From a virus: a stretch of DNA of 64,000 bases. Positions within the stretch are counted from its first letter, which is position 1, and each line of letters begins with the position of its first letter. The notes below the pieces were generated by a model. The model searched no databases, was not told where the DNA came from, and saw only the letters and a list, made by a program, of their open reading frames with translations. This document shows, in pieces, positions 8,047 to 31,484 of this stretch. The DNA lies in IMG/VR virus record IMGVR_UViG_3300045391_002681, positions 34,412-98,411 of that record; one strand, written 5' to 3'. The position numbers and the translations under genes are program-made.

Positions 8047-8065
8047 GATCGGGTCCGTTCGTTGT

Positions 8066-8100
8066 TGATATCGCCTACGCGTAGATGATATCGTCTACGC
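8066..8100 (+). promoter_or_regulatory. Putative operator/promoter of the RHH gene
   Basis: TGATATCG(C/T)CTACGC twice with 20-bp period, also an imperfect palindrome, immediately before ATG 8102. Confidence 0.55.
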
Positions 8101-8101
8101 C

Positions 8102-8413
8102 ATGCCCAGACCGAAGCCCGCCGAAGAGCCTGTCCAGATCGCCGTGCGCATCGCGCCTTCGCTGCTCAAGCGGTTGGACGCTGAGGCCGAGGCATCCGAG
8201 CGCAGCCGGAATGCCGTGATCGCCGAAGCGCTGGCAGCGCACATCGACGAGAGCGGAAGTCGGAGGGCGACGCAGAAACTGGCGAAGGGCCTGGCGGCTC
8301 AAAAGGCCCGCGTAGAAGCGGCCAAGCCGGCAGCGACGCCGGGACGGATGACGTTCGACGACGTGCGGCCGAAGTTCGTGCCGCGCCTCAAGCCCGACAA
8401 GGTGAAGCGATGA
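8102..8413 (+). CDS. Ribbon-helix-helix (CopG/Arc-like) protein
   Basis: VQIAVRIAPSLLKRLDAEAEASERSRNAVIAEAL. Confidence 0.8.
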   Translation: MPRPKPAEEPVQIAVRIAPSLLKRLDAEAEASERSRNAVIAEALAAHIDESGSRRATQKLAKGLAAQKARVEAAKPAATPGRMTFDDVRPKFVPRLKPDKVKR

Positions 8414-8619
8414 GCGAAAATCCACCCTTCCTAAAGGGCGAACTGGTCACCCGAGACGGGACCGATGTCCACGAGGTTGTTGACGTGGACGACGGGCTAG
8501 GCGGGATAGTCGTTCGGTGCGTGACGGCCCCCAAGTCCCGCTGGACCGAGGTCGGCGACATCGAGAACAATCTCGCCAGCCGCTATCTTCGGGTTTCCCA
8601 GAAGGGGCAGAAGCGATGA
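8410..8619 (+). CDS. Hypothetical protein
   Basis: ATGA-coupled to the RHH gene. Confidence 0.55.
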   Translation: MSENPPFLKGELVTRDGTDVHEVVDVDDGLGGIVVRCVTAPKSRWTEVGDIENNLASRYLRVSQKGQKR

Positions 8620-9020
8620 GTGAGATCAGGGCTATATCGGCCGAGGGGGTGACTAGTCAGTCGGTGAACGACGGTGCTTTCGCGATCCTGCAGTTTCAAC
8701 GCACCAATCCGGACCCAAATGGCGGCACGATGGTCAATGTCGCGCTGCCCATGCAGATGATGTTTTACGTGGCCGTAGCTGCTCTCAATGCCATTCCAAA
8801 GCCCGACCCCGGACTGACCGGGCACCATCCCTTCGTGCTGGCCGCCCAACAAGTCCAACTCGGGCGCGGCCCCAACGGGCAGATCATCTTCACGGTTGAG
8901 CTCGAACAAGGCGCTCGGCTGAGCTTCGAACTCGACCAAGGTCAAGCCGACAGCTTGGCCGCCGGCTTCGCTACCGTTGCAAGCCCAGTTGTGGGCAAGC
9001 CGTCGGGACCGGTGAACTGA
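8616..9020 (+). CDS. Hypothetical protein (MSEIRAIS...)
   Basis: ATGA-coupled start at 8616, protein-like composition. Confidence 0.6.
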   Translation: MSEIRAISAEGVTSQSVNDGAFAILQFQRTNPDPNGGTMVNVALPMQMMFYVAVAALNAIPKPDPGLTGHHPFVLAAQQVQLGRGPNGQIIFTVELEQGARLSFELDQGQADSLAAGFATVASPVVGKPSGPVN

Positions 9021-9023
9021 TCG

Positions 9024-9163
9024 CCCTCGCCTCCCCCTAGCGCTGACAGACAGCGCGGAGGCAGGTCATCTCCAGTCCCGCCCTTTCGGGGTTGGCGAGG
9101 GTCTTTGCTCTGGCGTTCACGCCAGAAGGTCTCCGGTCGTCCTGTACTGGGCAGGGTCGGAGA
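9024..9163 (-). ncRNA. Candidate structured RNA downstream of the tRNA cluster
   Basis: Stems CCCTCGCC/GGCGAGGG, CCC-GAAA-GGG, GCGCTG/CAGCGC, TCTGGCG/CGCCAGA, TCTCCG/CGGAGA. Confidence 0.4.
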
Positions 9164-9244
9164 TGGTGGAGCAGGTTAGGGGATCGAACCCCACCCTTCG
9201 CTGCCGGCGATCAACCCGGCCGGGGCCGCGACCAGCGGACCTGC
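9164..9244 (-). ncRNA. Non-canonical tRNA-like RNA
   Basis: GCAGGT/ACCTGC acceptor stem, TCCACCA end, T-arm TGGGG-TTCGATC-CCCTA, hairpins CCGC-TGGTC-GCGG and GCCGG-GTTGATCG-CCGGC. Confidence 0.65.
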
Positions 9245-9250
9245 ATGAAG

Positions 9251-9324
9251 TGGAGCGGCGACGGGGATTCGAACCCCGATCCTCAGCTTGGAAGGCTGCG
9301 GCTCTACCCTTGAGCTATGGCCGC
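9251..9324 (-). tRNA. tRNA-Gly(TCC)
   Basis: GCGGCCATAGCTCAAGGGTAGAGCCGCAGCCTTCCAAGCTGAGGATCGGGGTTCGAATCCCCGTCGCCGCTCCA; cloverleaf with C6:C67 mismatch. Confidence 0.92.
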
Positions 9325-9328
9325 AGTT

Positions 9329-9372
9329 TGGTCGCCGGTGGCTGTCTCAAGCCGCGCCTAAGCGCTCCGGCG
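9329..9372 (-). ncRNA. 44-nt mini tRNA-like element ending ACCA
   Basis: CGCCGG A GCGC-TTAG-GCGC GGCT-TGAGAC-AGCC A CCGGCG ACCA, 4 nt upstream of tRNA-Gly. Confidence 0.55.
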
Positions 9373-9383
9373 GTGAACTTGGT

Positions 9384-9740
9384 TTAGGCGGCGATCAGCC
9401 CGGCGCCGATGGAGCCGGAACTGGCGGCCTGGCGGCGCTGGTGAACGCGGCGCTCGCGCTGGGCCTGGAAGTGGATCACCTGCGAGCGATGCACCATGCC
9501 AACGGCGTCGACCTCGCCGCGCACCAGCCAGCGCGGGAACATGCGGTCGGGGGCGAAGGCGGCGGCGATGGCCGGCACGATCAGGTCGCACCAGACGTAG
9601 CGGCTCTGGCGGATGACCGCCCGGAGCGGCGCGGCGACGATGCTGTACGAAACGGACACGATCAGCGCGCACGCGAGCGCGCCCAACAGATAGGAGCTGA
9701 GAGCCATGGCGATGTCCTTGGAATCGAAACGGCCCCGCAA
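9384..9740 (-). CDS. Hypothetical membrane-anchored protein
   Basis: N-terminal hydrophobic segment LLGALACALIVSVSYSIV. Confidence 0.55.
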   Translation of the reverse strand: MRGRFDSKDIAMALSSYLLGALACALIVSVSYSIVAAPLRAVIRQSRYVWCDLIVPAIAAAFAPDRMFPRWLVRGEVDAVGMVHRSQVIHFQAQRERRVHQRRQAASSGSIGAGLIAA

Positions 9741-9808
9741 TGAAGCTGGGGCCGATCTGGTCGCACTAAGCGACGGTGCCTAAAGATACAGCTTAGCTGC
9801 CGATTTCG

Positions 9809-10270
9809 TCAAGCCCGCTTGTAACGGTGAGCCGCCAGTGGGTCGTATGGCTCTCGCTTGCTCTTCCGCTTCGGTGCTCGCGGTTGTTGTAAAGCCTCTT
9901 TGGCCGCGCGGTCCTGCTCCTCAACCCGAAACCAAAGGGCGCTATGTCCTTGCTCCACCAGTTGGGCGGCTCGCACAACAACGCGCTCGCAAGACGCGGC
10001 ATCGACACTGAACCACTCGCCCATCATTCTCCTGTTTCGGATGAGCCAATGGGCCATTTGCTCGACCTGACATGCCGCACCGAAGGTCGTTGTGAGCTTG
10101 AACCTTATGTGCAGCCGAAATGGGTTCCCGTTCTGCAACTGCCCCAGCCGGTTTTCCACGTCCTTCGCGATGCCGATCTTGTGGGGGCCGTTGTCGATGC
10201 CGATGACGTAGACGAAGTGCTCGGCGTCAAGCGCGGGATCGCGTTGGTAGACCATCAGTGCAAGCCCCAA
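9809..10270 (-). CDS. GIY-YIG superfamily (T5orf172/MUG113-like) protein
   Basis: FVYVIG...HKIGIAKDVENRLGQLQNGNP...GEWF. Confidence 0.82.
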   Translation of the reverse strand: MGLALMVYQRDPALDAEHFVYVIGIDNGPHKIGIAKDVENRLGQLQNGNPFRLHIRFKLTTTFGAACQVEQMAHWLIRNRRMMGEWFSVDAASCERVVVRAAQLVEQGHSALWFRVEEQDRAAKEALQQPRAPKRKSKREPYDPLAAHRYKRA

Positions 10271-30050: not shown

Positions 30051-30259
30051 GCGCTCCGATCACCCGGGCCCTGATCGAGCGAGCTATCACGGCCATGGAA
30101 TCCACCGGCCATCCCGTGAAAGGCGTTCGCCTGTCCCCAGATGGGTGCGTTAGCCTATTGACCGAGACGCCCGCTGGCGCCCTAGCGTCCAATGACGACC
30201 AGGGAGATTGGCTGAGTCTTGCCGGCGAGACGGACGTACCTCGTGCCCAAGGGGCTTAA
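30047..30259 (+). CDS. Putative excisionase
   Basis: 70-aa ORF overlapping the integrase start. Confidence 0.5.
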   Translation: MSAPITRALIERAITAMESTGHPVKGVRLSPDGCVSLLTETPAGALASNDDQGDWLSLAGETDVPRAQGA

Positions 30260-31370
30260 ACCCGTCAAGCGCAAGCTGGCGAACGGCGATGTGCGGACCT
30301 ATTGGTATCACCGCGCCACCGGAAAGGCCCTGACGCACGATCCCGAGACCGCTGAGGGCCTTCTAGAGGTCGCCGCGCTGGACAGGCGCAGCGGCGTCAC
30401 ATCGGCCGCCAGCGGCCATCCTGGCGGCTCCTACGCGGAATTGTGGGCTGAGTACCGCAAGAGCCCCGAGTGGAAGAACCTGCGGCCCCGCACCCGATCC
30501 GATTACCAGGCCGTCCGTGACTGGCTGGGCGACAAGGCCGCCGAGCGCATGATGCTGAAGCAGCTCACGTCAGGCGACCTATTCAAGCTCCGCGACAAGG
30601 CGTTCAAGGCCAAAGGGCGCCGGTTCGCCAACTACGTCGTCCAGGTCATGCGCCTCACGCTGAAGTGGGGCAAGAAGCGCGACATGCTGGCGGTCAACCC
30701 GGCCGAGGAAGTCGATCAGATCCGAAAGCCGACCGGAGAGGCTAAGGTCAACCGGGCCTGGACCATGGCCGAGGTCGAAGCCTTCGCCAACGCCGCGCCG
30801 CCGCACCTGATCCTGCCGTTCATGCTCGGCCTCTTCGCGGGGATGCGCCAGGGCGACGCCCTGCACGTCACCTGGAGCGCCTATGACGGCCTCGCCCTAC
30901 GGTGGATCGCCAGCAAGAACGGCGAGCCCTGCATGGCCCCGGTGAGCGGCGATTTCAAACGCCTGCTGGACGCGGCCAAGGAGCGCCGGGGTAAAGCCGT
31001 CCAGATCGCCGTCACGTCCACCGGCACGCCCTGGACACAGAGCGGGTTCCGCGCCTCGTTCTTCAAGCTGCTGCGGACGCTCCGCGCCGCCGGCGCCGTG
31101 CAGCCGGGCTGCACCTTCCACGGCCTGCGCCACACCATCGGCTCAACAGCGCGTGATGACGGCCAGAGCGAATCGCGGGTGGCCGCCGCCATCGGCGACC
31201 GGAGCCCCGCCATGGCCCAAATTTACGGCCGCGACGCCGACAAGGCCGAGGCGCAGACCACGGTTCTGGAGGGCGTGCAGAAACGCTTTGCGAACATCGA
31301 TTGGAAAATATCGGCAGCTGATTGGAAAACGGCTCGCTCCCCGAAGGGTGCGAAATCGCCGAAAACCTGA
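30219..31370 (+). CDS. int: Tyrosine integrase
   Basis: GMRQGD (R), SKNG (K), FHGLRH, QIYG (Y); adjacent to the tRNA att core. Confidence 0.93.
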   Translation: MPARRTYLVPKGLKPVKRKLANGDVRTYWYHRATGKALTHDPETAEGLLEVAALDRRSGVTSAASGHPGGSYAELWAEYRKSPEWKNLRPRTRSDYQAVRDWLGDKAAERMMLKQLTSGDLFKLRDKAFKAKGRRFANYVVQVMRLTLKWGKKRDMLAVNPAEEVDQIRKPTGEAKVNRAWTMAEVEAFANAAPPHLILPFMLGLFAGMRQGDALHVTWSAYDGLALRWIASKNGEPCMAPVSGDFKRLLDAAKERRGKAVQIAVTSTGTPWTQSGFRASFFKLLRTLRAAGAVQPGCTFHGLRHTIGSTARDDGQSESRVAAAIGDRSPAMAQIYGRDADKAEAQTTVLEGVQKRFANIDWKISAADWKTARSPKGAKSPKT

Positions 31371-31484
31371 ATGAAAAGAAAGTGGTGCCTGGGGGCGGAA
31401 TCGAACCACCGACACGCGGATTTTCAAGCGGAGCGTTTCCCTAGTCTTTATAATGGGGAGCGGTCGGGCTGATTGGAAAACGGC
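31299..31484. repeat. Integrase arm-type sites flanking the att core
   Basis: GCTGATTGGAAAACGGC at 31317-31333 and 31468-31484; partial copy GATTGGAAAA at 31299. Confidence 0.75.
31383..31426 (-). other. att core = 3' half of tRNA-Phe(GAA)
   Basis: TGAAAATCCGCGTGTCGGTGGTTCGATTCCGCCCCCAGGCACCA; no 5' half. Confidence 0.88.

What the first reader, a model, noticed from the sequence alone, without database searches (positions are those of the whole stretch)
9164..9372. Array of three CCA-ended tRNA-shaped RNAs, only one canonical
Seen on the minus strand, in order: a 44-nt mini-tRNA (6-bp acceptor, small hairpin, T-loop-like arm, ACCA); a 4-nt spacer; tRNA-Gly(TCC); a 6-nt spacer; and a 78-nt tRNA-like RNA. 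The last has a 6-bp acceptor, a 5-bp TTCGATC T-arm, a D-like hairpin, an 8-nt-loop hairpin and a TCCACCA end. Stems are intact while the geometry is non-canonical, which argues against simple decay. Known: RNase P and CCA enzymes recognise acceptor plus T-arm; phage tRNAs counter anticodon nucleases; P1 C4 and P4 CI are RNase P-processed regulatory RNAs. Inference: tRNA mimics acting as decoys, processing signals or small regulators at the head of the late region.
Basis: partly seen in the sequence, partly recalled or inferred. Interest (0 to 1): 0.8.

Follow-up and report, generated by a model that had tools for sequence, protein, structure and literature searches.

The report
Phage tRNA-Gly flanked by two tRNA-like relics
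A prophage-like virus carries one working glycine tRNA gene squeezed between two small tRNA-shaped sequences that cannot read codons; they are real and tRNA-related, found in no other sequence searched, and most likely leftover gene slots that still act as cutting marks for tRNA-trimming enzymes.

Summary
The anatomy is real. On the minus strand, 12 nt after the stop of an orphan 118-aa membrane ORF, lie in order:
- a 44-nt three-way-junction hairpin ending ACCA (9329-9372);
- a 4-nt spacer;
- a true tRNA-Gly(UCC) (9251-9324, Rfam 59 bits);
- a 6-nt spacer;
- a 78/81-nt element (9164-9244) with a 6-bp acceptor-like stem, a perfect T-arm and UCCACCA.

The acceptor closures, the T-arm and the tight adjacency exceed chance. 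The interior hairpins do not.

Neither flank is a tRNA by Rfam or default ARAGORN. Element 3 most resembles tRNA-Gly genes (G1-C72, C2-G71, U73). It has an 8-nt loop and no Gly anticodon.

No homologue of either flank turned up in any collection searched. Related phages carry the same tRNA-Gly lineage with other neighbours (solo, tRNA-Thr, aberrant tRNAs). Covariation therefore cannot be tested, and the flanks look lineage-specific.

A 16-nt direct repeat links element 3's loop hairpin to the end of the ORF, which hints at rearrangement.

Best reading: these are non-decoding, tRNA-derived slots of a small phage tRNA operon. RNase P probably still excises them, so they act as processing punctuation. 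Decoy or regulator roles have no support.

This scan has noted comparable mini-tRNAs in other phages. Interest is low to moderate.

The parts
9384..9740 (-). Upstream ORF of 118 aa, a predicted small membrane protein. It is an orphan and its stop codon lies 12 nt before element 1.
   Evidence: GC3 is 0.92. The only match among 5.8e9 proteins is the protein itself. No Pfam, PHROG or PADLOC hit. Translation.
9783..9812 (-). Sigma-70-like promoter match (TTGACG-18-TATCTT) upstream of the ORF. It is a candidate start for an ORF + array transcript.
   Evidence: Consensus scan. This is a pattern match only.
9329..9372 (-). Element 1, a 44-nt acceptor-stem-like three-way junction. Parts: 6-bp stem (9372-9367 / 9338-9333), hairpin 1 (9365-9354), hairpin 2 (9353-9340), 3' ACCA (9332-9329).
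   Evidence: MFE -22.5, z -2.8. Not a tRNA by Rfam at E<=10 or by ARAGORN. No homologue.
9251..9324 (-). Canonical tRNA-Gly(UCC) with encoded CCA, U73 and one acceptor mismatch (C6.C67).
   Evidence: ARAGORN. Rfam RF00005 at 59 bits. The same lineage occurs in L031/L163, L033, L161 and L162.
9164..9244 (-). Element 3, a tRNA-Gly-like non-decoding element. Parts: acceptor 9244-9239 / 9176-9171, D-like hairpin 9238-9226, linker 9225-9221, 8-nt-loop hairpin 9220-9203, 9-nt variable stretch 9202-9194, T-arm 9193-9177, UCCA 9170-9167, second CCA 9166-9164.
   Evidence: ARAGORN calls it only at -ps80, as tRNA-?(tgat). No RF00005 hit even when scanned alone; the best match is mascRNA at 12 bits. The R2 model's best tRNA matches are all tRNA-Gly.
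9389..9404 (-). Copy A of a 16-nt direct repeat (15/16 identical to copy B at 9205-9220, inside element 3's loop hairpin). It forms the last codons of the ORF.
   Evidence: It is the only such repeat in 8400-9800. Only 3% of random 1.4-kb regions hold any such repeat.
8940..9163 (-). Structured, apparently non-coding stretch directly behind element 3. It holds several GC hairpins, including a multi-hairpin domain closed by an 8-bp helix.
   Evidence: z -3.6 on the minus strand and -4.1 on the plus strand. No Rfam family. Inverted repeat I1 at 9024-9037 / 9088-9101.

Best explanation
This is a small phage tRNA operon with three slots, and only the middle one, tRNA-Gly(UCC), is a decoder.

Element 3 is a tRNA-derived unit. 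It has a Gly-type acceptor end, a perfect T-arm and an encoded CCA. It has lost decoding geometry: no linker at positions 8-9, a 5-nt linker before the anticodon-like stem, an 8-nt loop and no NCC anticodon.

Element 1 is an acceptor-stem-like junction ending in RCCA.

Both are lineage-specific products of tRNA-slot turnover or rearrangement, not conserved devices. They still keep the determinants that host enzymes read: an acceptor helix, a T-arm in element 3, and a 3' NCCA. So they are most likely excised from the ORF-array transcript like tRNAs.

Proposed processing:
- RNase P cuts at the 5' end of element 3, 6 nt behind the CCA of tRNA-Gly. That leaves a short trailer for exonucleases.
- RNase P cuts at tRNA-Gly, and possibly at element 1. 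That releases the upstream mRNA with, or just before, a stable 3' hairpin.

In effect the flanks work as processing punctuation.

Shown: the anatomy, the tRNA relatedness of element 3, the non-tRNA status of both flanks, and their uniqueness. Inferred: co-transcription, cleavage, and any benefit.
For: Anatomy and array-like spacing of 4 and 6 nt.

Element 3:
- It has a consensus T-arm, which is rare in this record.
- It has a closed 6-bp acceptor with UCCA at tRNA length (78 nt).
- The top seven tRNA matches of its single-sequence CM are all tRNA-Gly or Gly-like genes: L026, L088, L090, L087, L091, L027 and the window's own tRNA-Gly. The loci hold about 13 isotypes.
- Rfam tRNA does not match either flank, even when each is scanned alone.

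Turnover in relatives:
- The same tRNA-Gly lineage stands solo between genes in L161/L162.
- It follows tRNA-Thr in L031, where ARAGORN does not call it.
- It follows an odd tRNA and lacks CCA in L033.
- A Gly-like gene that ARAGORN does not call lies in L027.

Rearrangement hint: a 16-nt direct repeat joins the ORF end to element 3's loop hairpin.

Known enzymology:
- Bacterial RNase P reads the acceptor/T-stem stack and the 3' RCCA. It also cleaves non-tRNA substrates such as 4.5S RNA, C4 RNA and tRNA-like structures (PMC11143913).
- RNase P alone can separate polycistronic tRNA precursors (PMC2190699).
- Non-canonical tRNA-like t-elements with a conserved GGTTCRANYCC arm, and plain acceptor-like stem-loops, mark mRNA ends in plant mitochondria (PMC1920247).
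Against: - There are no RNA data, so expression, cleavage and CCA status are untested.
- The predicted ensemble of element 3 does not form the T-arm. A rod-like fold is 3.4 kcal/mol better.
- The array as a whole folds no better than shuffles (z +0.25).
- Element 3's acceptor/T stack is 11 bp, not the canonical 12.
- The tRNA ancestry of element 1 is not demonstrable. It has no tRNA-like sequence match.
- CM scores in the 20s also arise by chance inside coding DNA (L146). The Gly affinity therefore rests on rank enrichment and shared identity positions, not on a significant score.
- With no homologues, selection for a punctuation role cannot be shown.
Confidence: 0.5

Rival explanations
1. The flanks are inert debris. 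Element 3 is a dead tRNA pseudogene. Element 1 is an ordinary GC-rich hairpin, or the 3' stabiliser of the upstream mRNA, that merely happens to end in ACCA. Neither is recognised as tRNA-like by any enzyme.
For: - Interior hairpins are no better than shuffles.
- 6-bp stem + NCCA closures are as common in the real genome as in shuffles (108 against 75-102).
- The T-arm of element 3 is not predicted to form.
- There is no conservation anywhere.
- Decaying tRNAs are common in related phages.
Against: - Adjacency of such a closure to a tRNA within 10 nt has P of about 0.006 per side, and it occurs on both sides.
- It is seen for no other of 42 tRNAs except one aberrant tRNA-Ser.
- The acceptor stems (6/6 WC pairs each) and the T-arm (5/5) are undamaged, whereas the working tRNA-Gly itself carries a mismatch.
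- RNase P tolerates minimal acceptor + RCCA substrates.
Confidence: 0.2
2. The flanks are dedicated tRNA mimics: decoys for tRNA-targeting host nucleases or for GlyRS/CCA enzymes, or small regulators made by RNase P processing.
For: - Element 3 keeps Gly-type acceptor identity positions (G1-C72, C2-G71, U73) while lacking the anticodon.
- All three units end in NCCA.
- Phage tRNAs are known to counter anticodon nucleases (PMC10264068, listed; abstract only read).
- C4 RNA of P1/P7 is an RNase P-made regulator.
Against: - No homologue exists in phage, viral-contig, genome or metagenome collections, so there is no sign of selection.
- The loops resemble no known nuclease target.
- The record holds no linked tRNA-repair, CCA-enzyme or Ro60 gene. 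The four adjacent ORFs scanned against PADLOC gave no hit, and the T5orf172 gene gave only a marginal one (PDC-S57, 16 bits).
- Thermodynamics do not favour a tRNA shape for element 3.
Confidence: 0.15
3. The array is a rearrangement scar of a mobile cassette, for example homing by the nearby T5orf172/GIY-YIG-clan gene. That event would have inserted or duplicated about 184 bp (the tail of the ORF, element 1, tRNA-Gly and the 5' third of element 3) between two copies of a 16-nt hairpin sequence, leaving a disabled tRNA copy.
For: - The 15/16 direct repeat brackets exactly this block.
- A T5orf172/MUG113 protein is encoded 440 nt upstream.
- Free-standing GIY-YIG endonucleases sit in T-even tRNA clusters (own knowledge: SegB).
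- The scan's earlier notes describe hairpin-disabled tRNA copies next to small GIY-YIG genes (leads only).
Against: - The nuclease-like gene is separated from the array by another ORF.
- Element 3 is not a near copy of the adjacent tRNA-Gly (3' acceptor strand 3-4 of 8 identical).
- In Sinorhizobium phage NV1.1.1 a T5orf172 relative lies 2.2 kb from a different tRNA with three genes between. The gene therefore looks like a resident of this region, not a nested cassette.
- Association of relatives with tRNAs could not be tested.
Confidence: 0.08
4. Element 3 is a working non-canonical tRNA, for example a four-base (UGAU) decoder or frameshift suppressor with an 8-nt anticodon loop.
For: - ARAGORN at a lowered threshold draws a cloverleaf with a 4-nt anticodon.
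- Related phages have tRNA calls with 8-nt loops (L020, L023).
Against: - The same threshold gives four other spurious calls in 1.4 kb.
- There is no 8-9 linker, there is a 5-nt stretch at position 26, and the acceptor/T stack is 11 bp.
- RF00005 does not match.
- It lacks anticodon identity for GlyRS.
Confidence: 0.03
5. Element 3 is an attachment-site remnant, that is, a displaced 3' tRNA fragment left by an integrase.
For: The record has two integrases, each with a typical 3' tRNA fragment beside it.
Against: - Those fragments lack a 5' acceptor strand, whereas element 3 is closed by 6 WC pairs at tRNA length.
- No integrase is nearby.
- Its 3' half is absent from 185,579 species genomes.
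Confidence: 0.03

Closest known systems
t-elements and acceptor-stem-like stem-loops of plant mitochondria (Forner et al. 2007, PMC1920247)
   Same: - Non-canonical cloverleaf with a conserved GGTTCRANYCC T-arm (element 3 has GGTTCGATCC).
- Plain acceptor-like stem-loops (compare element 1).
- Location at mRNA/tRNA boundaries.
- Proposed role as RNase P/Z cleavage marks.
   Different: - Organellar, not phage.
- Their ends were mapped experimentally, whereas here nothing is mapped.
- Here the CCA is encoded, and bacterial 3' maturation is exonucleolytic or by RNase E.
Phage T4 stable RNAs species 1 and 2 (rnaC, rnaD) in the T4 tRNA gene cluster (own knowledge)
   Same: Small non-decoding RNAs encoded inside a phage tRNA cluster, co-transcribed and matured by the tRNA-processing machinery. 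Their function is still unknown.
   Different: - No sequence similarity: blastn of elements 1 and 3 against 50,697 phage records gave no such hit.
- The T4 RNAs are longer (about 120-140 nt) and conserved among T-even phages, whereas these are singletons.
Non-tRNA RNase P substrates: pre-4.5S RNA, P1/P7 C4 antisense RNA, tmRNA, viral tRNA-like structures (review PMC11143913)
   Same: A helix followed by 3' RCCA suffices for recognition. Element 1 offers a 6-bp helix + ACCA, and element 3 offers a helix + T-arm + UCCA.
   Different: No sequence or structural homology to any of them. Rfam gives nothing beyond a 4.6-bit truncated tmRNA 3'-end match.
mascRNA / MEN-beta tRNA-like small RNAs (Rfam RF01684)
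   Same: tRNA-like RNA without a decoding anticodon arm, made by tRNA-processing enzymes. The tandem CCACCA end is reminiscent of the CCACCA degradation tag (own knowledge, Wilusz et al. 2011).
   Different: - Eukaryotic family.
- The match is only 12 bits against a 42.5-bit threshold.
- Here CCACCA is encoded, not added.
Integrase att-site tRNA 3' fragments
   Same: T-arm + 3' acceptor strand + CCA outside a complete tRNA. Two genuine examples lie in the same record.
   Different: Element 3 has its own pairing 5' strand, tRNA length and no adjacent integrase.

Membership tests
Canonical tRNA (Rfam RF00005 / ARAGORN) | Score at or above the gathering threshold (29 bits), or a default ARAGORN call | tested here: not met
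   The middle unit scores 59 bits and is called tRNA-Gly(UCC). Elements 1 and 3 give no RF00005 match at E<=10, even when element 3 is scanned alone. They get no default ARAGORN call.
Canonical tRNA (Rfam RF00005 / ARAGORN) | 7-nt anticodon loop with U33, a 2-nt 8-9 linker and a 12-bp acceptor/T stack | tested here: not met
   Element 3 has an 8-nt loop GUUGAUCG, no 8-9 linker, a 5-nt linker before the anticodon-like stem, and a 6+5 bp stack. Element 1 has no anticodon arm.
t-element-like processing signal | Conserved T-arm motif GGTTCRANYCC within a non-canonical tRNA-like fold closed by an acceptor-like stem | tested here: met
   Element 3 has GGTTCGATCC with a 5-bp stem and a 6-bp closing stem. 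Element 1 has only the acceptor-like stem.
t-element-like processing signal | RNA ends coincide with the element's borders (RNase P / 3' processing) | not testable with these tools
   No sequencing run could be listed.
Phage/tRNA-cluster stable RNA under selection (T4 rnaC/rnaD type) | Conservation among related phages | tested here: not met
   No homologue in the viral, genome, metagenome or phage collections, nor in 150 TerL-related loci.
att-site tRNA fragment | 3' tRNA part only, next to an integrase, identical to a host tRNA | tested here: not met
   Element 3 has a closed acceptor. The integrases lie at G000:3593-4069 and window 30219-31370, each with its own fragment. The exact 3' half is absent from genome contigs.
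tRNA-nested GIY-YIG nuclease cassette (SegB-like / the scan's earlier notes) | Small GIY-YIG gene wedged directly between an intact tRNA and a near-identical hairpin-disabled copy | tested here: inconclusive
   A T5orf172/MUG113 gene lies 440 nt away with an ORF between. Element 3 is not a near copy of tRNA-Gly. A 16-nt hairpin repeat is present. Contexts of relatives could not be fetched.
Y RNA / YrlA tRNA-like module; tmRNA | Rfam match, a linked Ro60 (TROVE) gene, or an ARAGORN tmRNA call | tested here: not met
   No Rfam hit. No TROVE domain in the record. No tmRNA call.

The most novel reading that the evidence does not exclude
Elements 1 and 3 are purpose-kept, non-decoding mini/pseudo-tRNAs. 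The phage would use them as RNase P/CCA-recognised punctuation, fixing the 3' end of the upstream membrane-protein mRNA and the trailer of tRNA-Gly. Alternatively, a GlyRS/CCA-enzyme-binding tRNA-Gly top-half mimic acts as a decoy. Either way this would be one more instance of a largely undescribed class of phage mini-tRNAs.
Probability: 0.2. Interest if true: 0.55.

Novelty: new member of a known kind. Interest (0 to 1): 0.3.

Why it matters
If the flanks are processed, this is a compact bacterial-virus example of tRNA-like punctuation. That principle is known from organelles (t-elements, the mitochondrial tRNA punctuation model) and hinted at by the T4 stable RNAs. It would also show how dying tRNA genes can be kept as cutting marks.

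As it stands, the locus is a singleton with no evidence of selection. Its main value is as a documented case of tRNA-slot turnover in temperate alphaproteobacterial-type phages, and as a caution: acceptor-like stems and tidy hairpins in 65-72% GC DNA are not evidence of function.

Tried and rejected
Homologue searches, all empty for the flanks:
- TerL-anchored loci in viral contigs (80 loci, at most 69% identity) and genome contigs (67 loci, at most 73% over partial matches), scanned by blastn, ARAGORN and single-sequence CMs R1/R2.
- The neighbouring ORF as query.
- Exact and degenerate DNA patterns in viral, genome and metagenome collections.
- blastn against phage records.

CM matches that looked promising were chance hits inside coding ORFs: L016 2279-2322 and L146 9245-9314.

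A tRNA-Ser(UGA) origin of element 3 (shared UUGA loop and CCGG stem with L090 tRNA-Ser) was not borne out by alignment ranking.

Other readings rejected or left untested:
- tmRNA, Y RNA and other Rfam families: nothing.
- No CCA-enzyme, RtcB or Ro60 gene in the record.
- Host identification through the integrase-side tRNA fragment: no exact match in 401 sampled alphaproteobacterial genomes and a 2-mismatch match in a Brevundimonas MAG.
- Sequencing runs: none was listed, so no read laying was possible.
- The T5orf172-cassette lead could not be tested.
- The interior-shuffle folding test has little power. The real tRNA-Gly also scores within the shuffles.

Full report
**Context.** The window is part of a 98,411-bp IMG/VR virus record (linear, CheckV 94%) with 65% GC. 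It carries two integrases, each with a 3' tRNA fragment beside it, so it probably holds two tandem integrative elements.

Genes around the finding run on the minus strand. They are early-type genes, then a T5orf172/MUG113 protein (9809-10270), an orphan 118-aa membrane ORF (9384-9740, GC3 0.92), and the array. About 700 nt of structured non-coding DNA follows. Further on come a ribbon-helix-helix (RHH) gene on the opposite strand, an 88-aa ORF, then HNH, TerS, TerL, portal and capsid. TerL is at most 63% identical to Rhizobium/Sinorhizobium/Paracoccus phage proteins, and at most 69% (73% over partial matches) to prophage-like loci (viral contigs and, mostly, alphaproteobacterial genomes).

**Observation.**
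- Element 1 (9372->9329, 44 nt) folds as a 6-bp stem enclosing two 4-bp hairpins and ends in ACCA (MFE -22.5 kcal/mol, z -2.8).
- After AACU comes tRNA-Gly(UCC), 9324-9251 (ARAGORN; Rfam 59 bits).
- After CUUCAU comes element 3 (9244->9164). It has a 6-bp acceptor-like stem, a hairpin with a 5-nt UGGUC loop, a hairpin with an 8-nt loop, a 9-nt stretch, a consensus T-arm (UGGGG/UUCGAUC/CCCUA) and UCCACCA.

**Is it more than chance?** Partly.
- A 6-bp stem + NCCA closure spanning 30-95 nt is as frequent in the real record (108 ends) as in shuffles (75-102). Its density is 5.5e-4 per nt and strand, so an end within 10 nt of a tRNA has P of about 0.006 per side.
- In a real-data control of 42 distinct tRNAs in about 1.7 Mb of related loci, only this tRNA-Gly has uncalled closures on both sides. 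The one other case (L119) is an aberrant tRNA-Ser.
- The T-arm motif occurs four times in the record, against a mean of about 0.8 in shuffles: tRNA-Gly, element 3 and the two integrase-side fragments.
- The interior hairpins carry no signal. With the outer stems fixed, 78% (element 3) and 15% (element 1) of shuffled interiors fold as well. The test is weak, because the real tRNA-Gly gives 38%.
- Element 3's MFE is a rod in which the D-like region pairs with the T-arm (-36.1 against -32.7 kcal/mol for the best T-arm-containing fold; T-arm probability about 0).
- The whole array folds no better than shuffles.

**What the flanks are not.**
- They are not tRNAs by RF00005 at E<=10, even when scanned alone, nor by default ARAGORN. 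ARAGORN at -ps80 draws element 3 as tRNA-?(tgat), but the same setting makes four other spurious calls in 1.4 kb.
- They match no other Rfam family. The best scores are mascRNA at 12 bits and a truncated tmRNA 3' end at 4.6 bits.
- Element 3 is not an att fragment. The genuine fragments by the integrases lack a 5' strand, and the 3' half of element 3 is absent from 185,579 species genomes.

**What element 3 resembles.** A single-sequence covariance model of element 3 ranks tRNA-Gly genes first among all tRNAs in the fetched loci:
- L026 Gly(CCC), 27.7 bits;
- L088, 24.7 bits;
- L090, L087 and L091, about 20 bits;
- the uncalled Gly-like gene of L027, 18.8 bits;
- the window's own tRNA-Gly, 18.5 bits.

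The shared columns are G1-C72, C2-G71, U73-CCA, the T-loop and a short UGGU-type D-loop. Scores of this size also occur by chance in coding DNA (L146). The Gly affinity is therefore a ranked resemblance, not a significant match. Element 3 is not a recent copy of the adjacent gene, and it lacks the C35/C36 anticodon determinants. No tRNA ancestry can be shown for element 1.

**Comparative evidence.** No homologue of either flank was found. The tRNA-Gly itself belongs to a recognisable phage lineage (5' GCGGCCA...). In relatives it has other neighbours:
- solo between genes in L161/L162;
- 50 nt after tRNA-Thr in L031, where its variable loop is so short that ARAGORN misses it;
- after an odd tRNA and without CCA in L033.

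A Gly-like gene that ARAGORN does not call lies at a comparable place in L027.

Other phages place a tRNA-Ser 2-5 nt behind tRNA-Gly(UCC). tRNA slots at this locus therefore turn over, and several are visibly decaying.

**An unexpected detail.** A 15/16 direct repeat, GCCGGG[C/T]TGATCGCCG, forms both the last codons of the ORF (9389-9404) and element 3's loop hairpin (9205-9220). The copies are 184 nt apart and bracket element 1, tRNA-Gly and the first 24 nt of element 3. Only 3% of random 1.4-kb regions hold any such repeat. This suggests a rearrangement or insertion history and favours a 'product of turnover' reading over a designed mimic.

The scan's earlier notes on GIY-YIG cassettes at tRNA genes prompted a test of the nearby T5orf172 gene. 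The gene is separated from the array by an ORF. Element 3 is not a near copy of tRNA-Gly. In Sinorhizobium phage NV1.1.1 a relative sits 2.2 kb from a different tRNA. The lead stays open but weak, and contexts of further relatives could not be fetched.

**Mechanism.** I take the locus to be a three-slot tRNA operon in which only tRNA-Gly decodes. A promoter-like site at 9812-9783 would transcribe the ORF and the array together (pattern only).

Bacterial RNase P recognises the acceptor/T-stem stack and the 3' RCCA. It cleaves minimal and non-tRNA substrates (PMC11143913), and it can by itself separate polycistronic tRNA precursors (PMC2190699). Element 3 (helix + T-arm + UCCA) and element 1 (helix + ACCA) keep exactly these determinants.

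Cleavage at 9244 would leave tRNA-Gly a 6-nt trailer for exonucleases. Cleavage at 9324 or 9372 would free the upstream mRNA with, or just before, a stable 3' hairpin. This is how plant-mitochondrial t-elements and acceptor-like stem-loops are thought to work (PMC1920247). All of these steps are inferred; no RNA data exist.

**Verdict.** The locus is a new member of a known kind (tRNA-like relics or punctuation in a phage tRNA operon) and a singleton without evidence of selection. This scan has noted comparable CCA-ended mini-tRNAs in other phage genomes, but on unrelated DNA.

Noticed in passing
window 9389-9404 and 9205-9220 (minus strand): A 16-nt direct repeat, 15/16 identical and 184 nt apart. 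One copy ends the 118-aa ORF and the other is element 3's 8-nt-loop hairpin. Deleting between the copies would extend the ORF through element 3's T-arm to the TAA in CCCCTAA. It may be a rearrangement scar.
   Followed up: partly
window 8940-9163: About 220 nt directly behind element 3 is strongly structured on both strands (z -3.6 and -4.1), with a multi-hairpin domain closed by an 8-bp helix (9024-9101). It matches no Rfam family and has no convincing ORF. It could be a cos/pac-proximal or regulatory region upstream of HNH-TerS.
   Followed up: partly
window 31380-31440 (minus) and G000:4190-4230 (minus; L092 about 2100-2140): Each of the two integrase genes (window 30219-31370; G000:3593-4069) has a typical 3' tRNA fragment beside it: T-arm + acceptor strand + CCA with no 5' strand. 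The 98-kb record probably holds two tandem integrative elements or prophages.
   Followed up: partly
L020:4940-5013, L023:4838-4911, L087:14018-14099, L091:2060-2141: TerL-related or tRNA-Gly-sharing phage contigs carry odd tRNAs. Two ARAGORN calls have 4-nt anticodons (tcga, tcaa). The L023 one can be read instead as a UCA (opal-reading) anticodon with a bulged stem. Two class-II tRNAs have a CUA (amber-reading) anticodon and are labelled tRNA-Pyl.
   Followed up: no
L031:5128-5197, L027:4238-4315, L033:4492-4564, L119:1585-1669: Aberrant tRNAs in related prophages: Gly-like genes missed by ARAGORN (2-nt variable loop in L031; L027); a tRNA-Gly with a 3:70 mismatch and CGA instead of CCA (L033); and a tRNA-Ser(CGA)-like unit with C33, 4 nt behind tRNA-Ser(GCU) (L119).
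   Followed up: partly
window 9251-9324: The working tRNA-Gly(UCC) has a C6.C67 acceptor mismatch. Its relative in L031 also mispairs at 6:67, whereas L161/L162 pair perfectly.
   Followed up: partly
window 8102-8413 (+) and 9083-9101 (+): An RHH/HicB-like gene lies on the opposite strand, with its own promoter-like site (8065-8094). A terminator-like hairpin points toward the array. Transcription therefore converges on the structured region.
   Followed up: no
window 9329-9405 (minus strand): Element 1's 3' strand CCGGCG can also pair with a second CGCCGG inside the ORF's last codons. That gives an alternative 77-nt, tRNA-length closure overlapping the stop codon.
   Followed up: no
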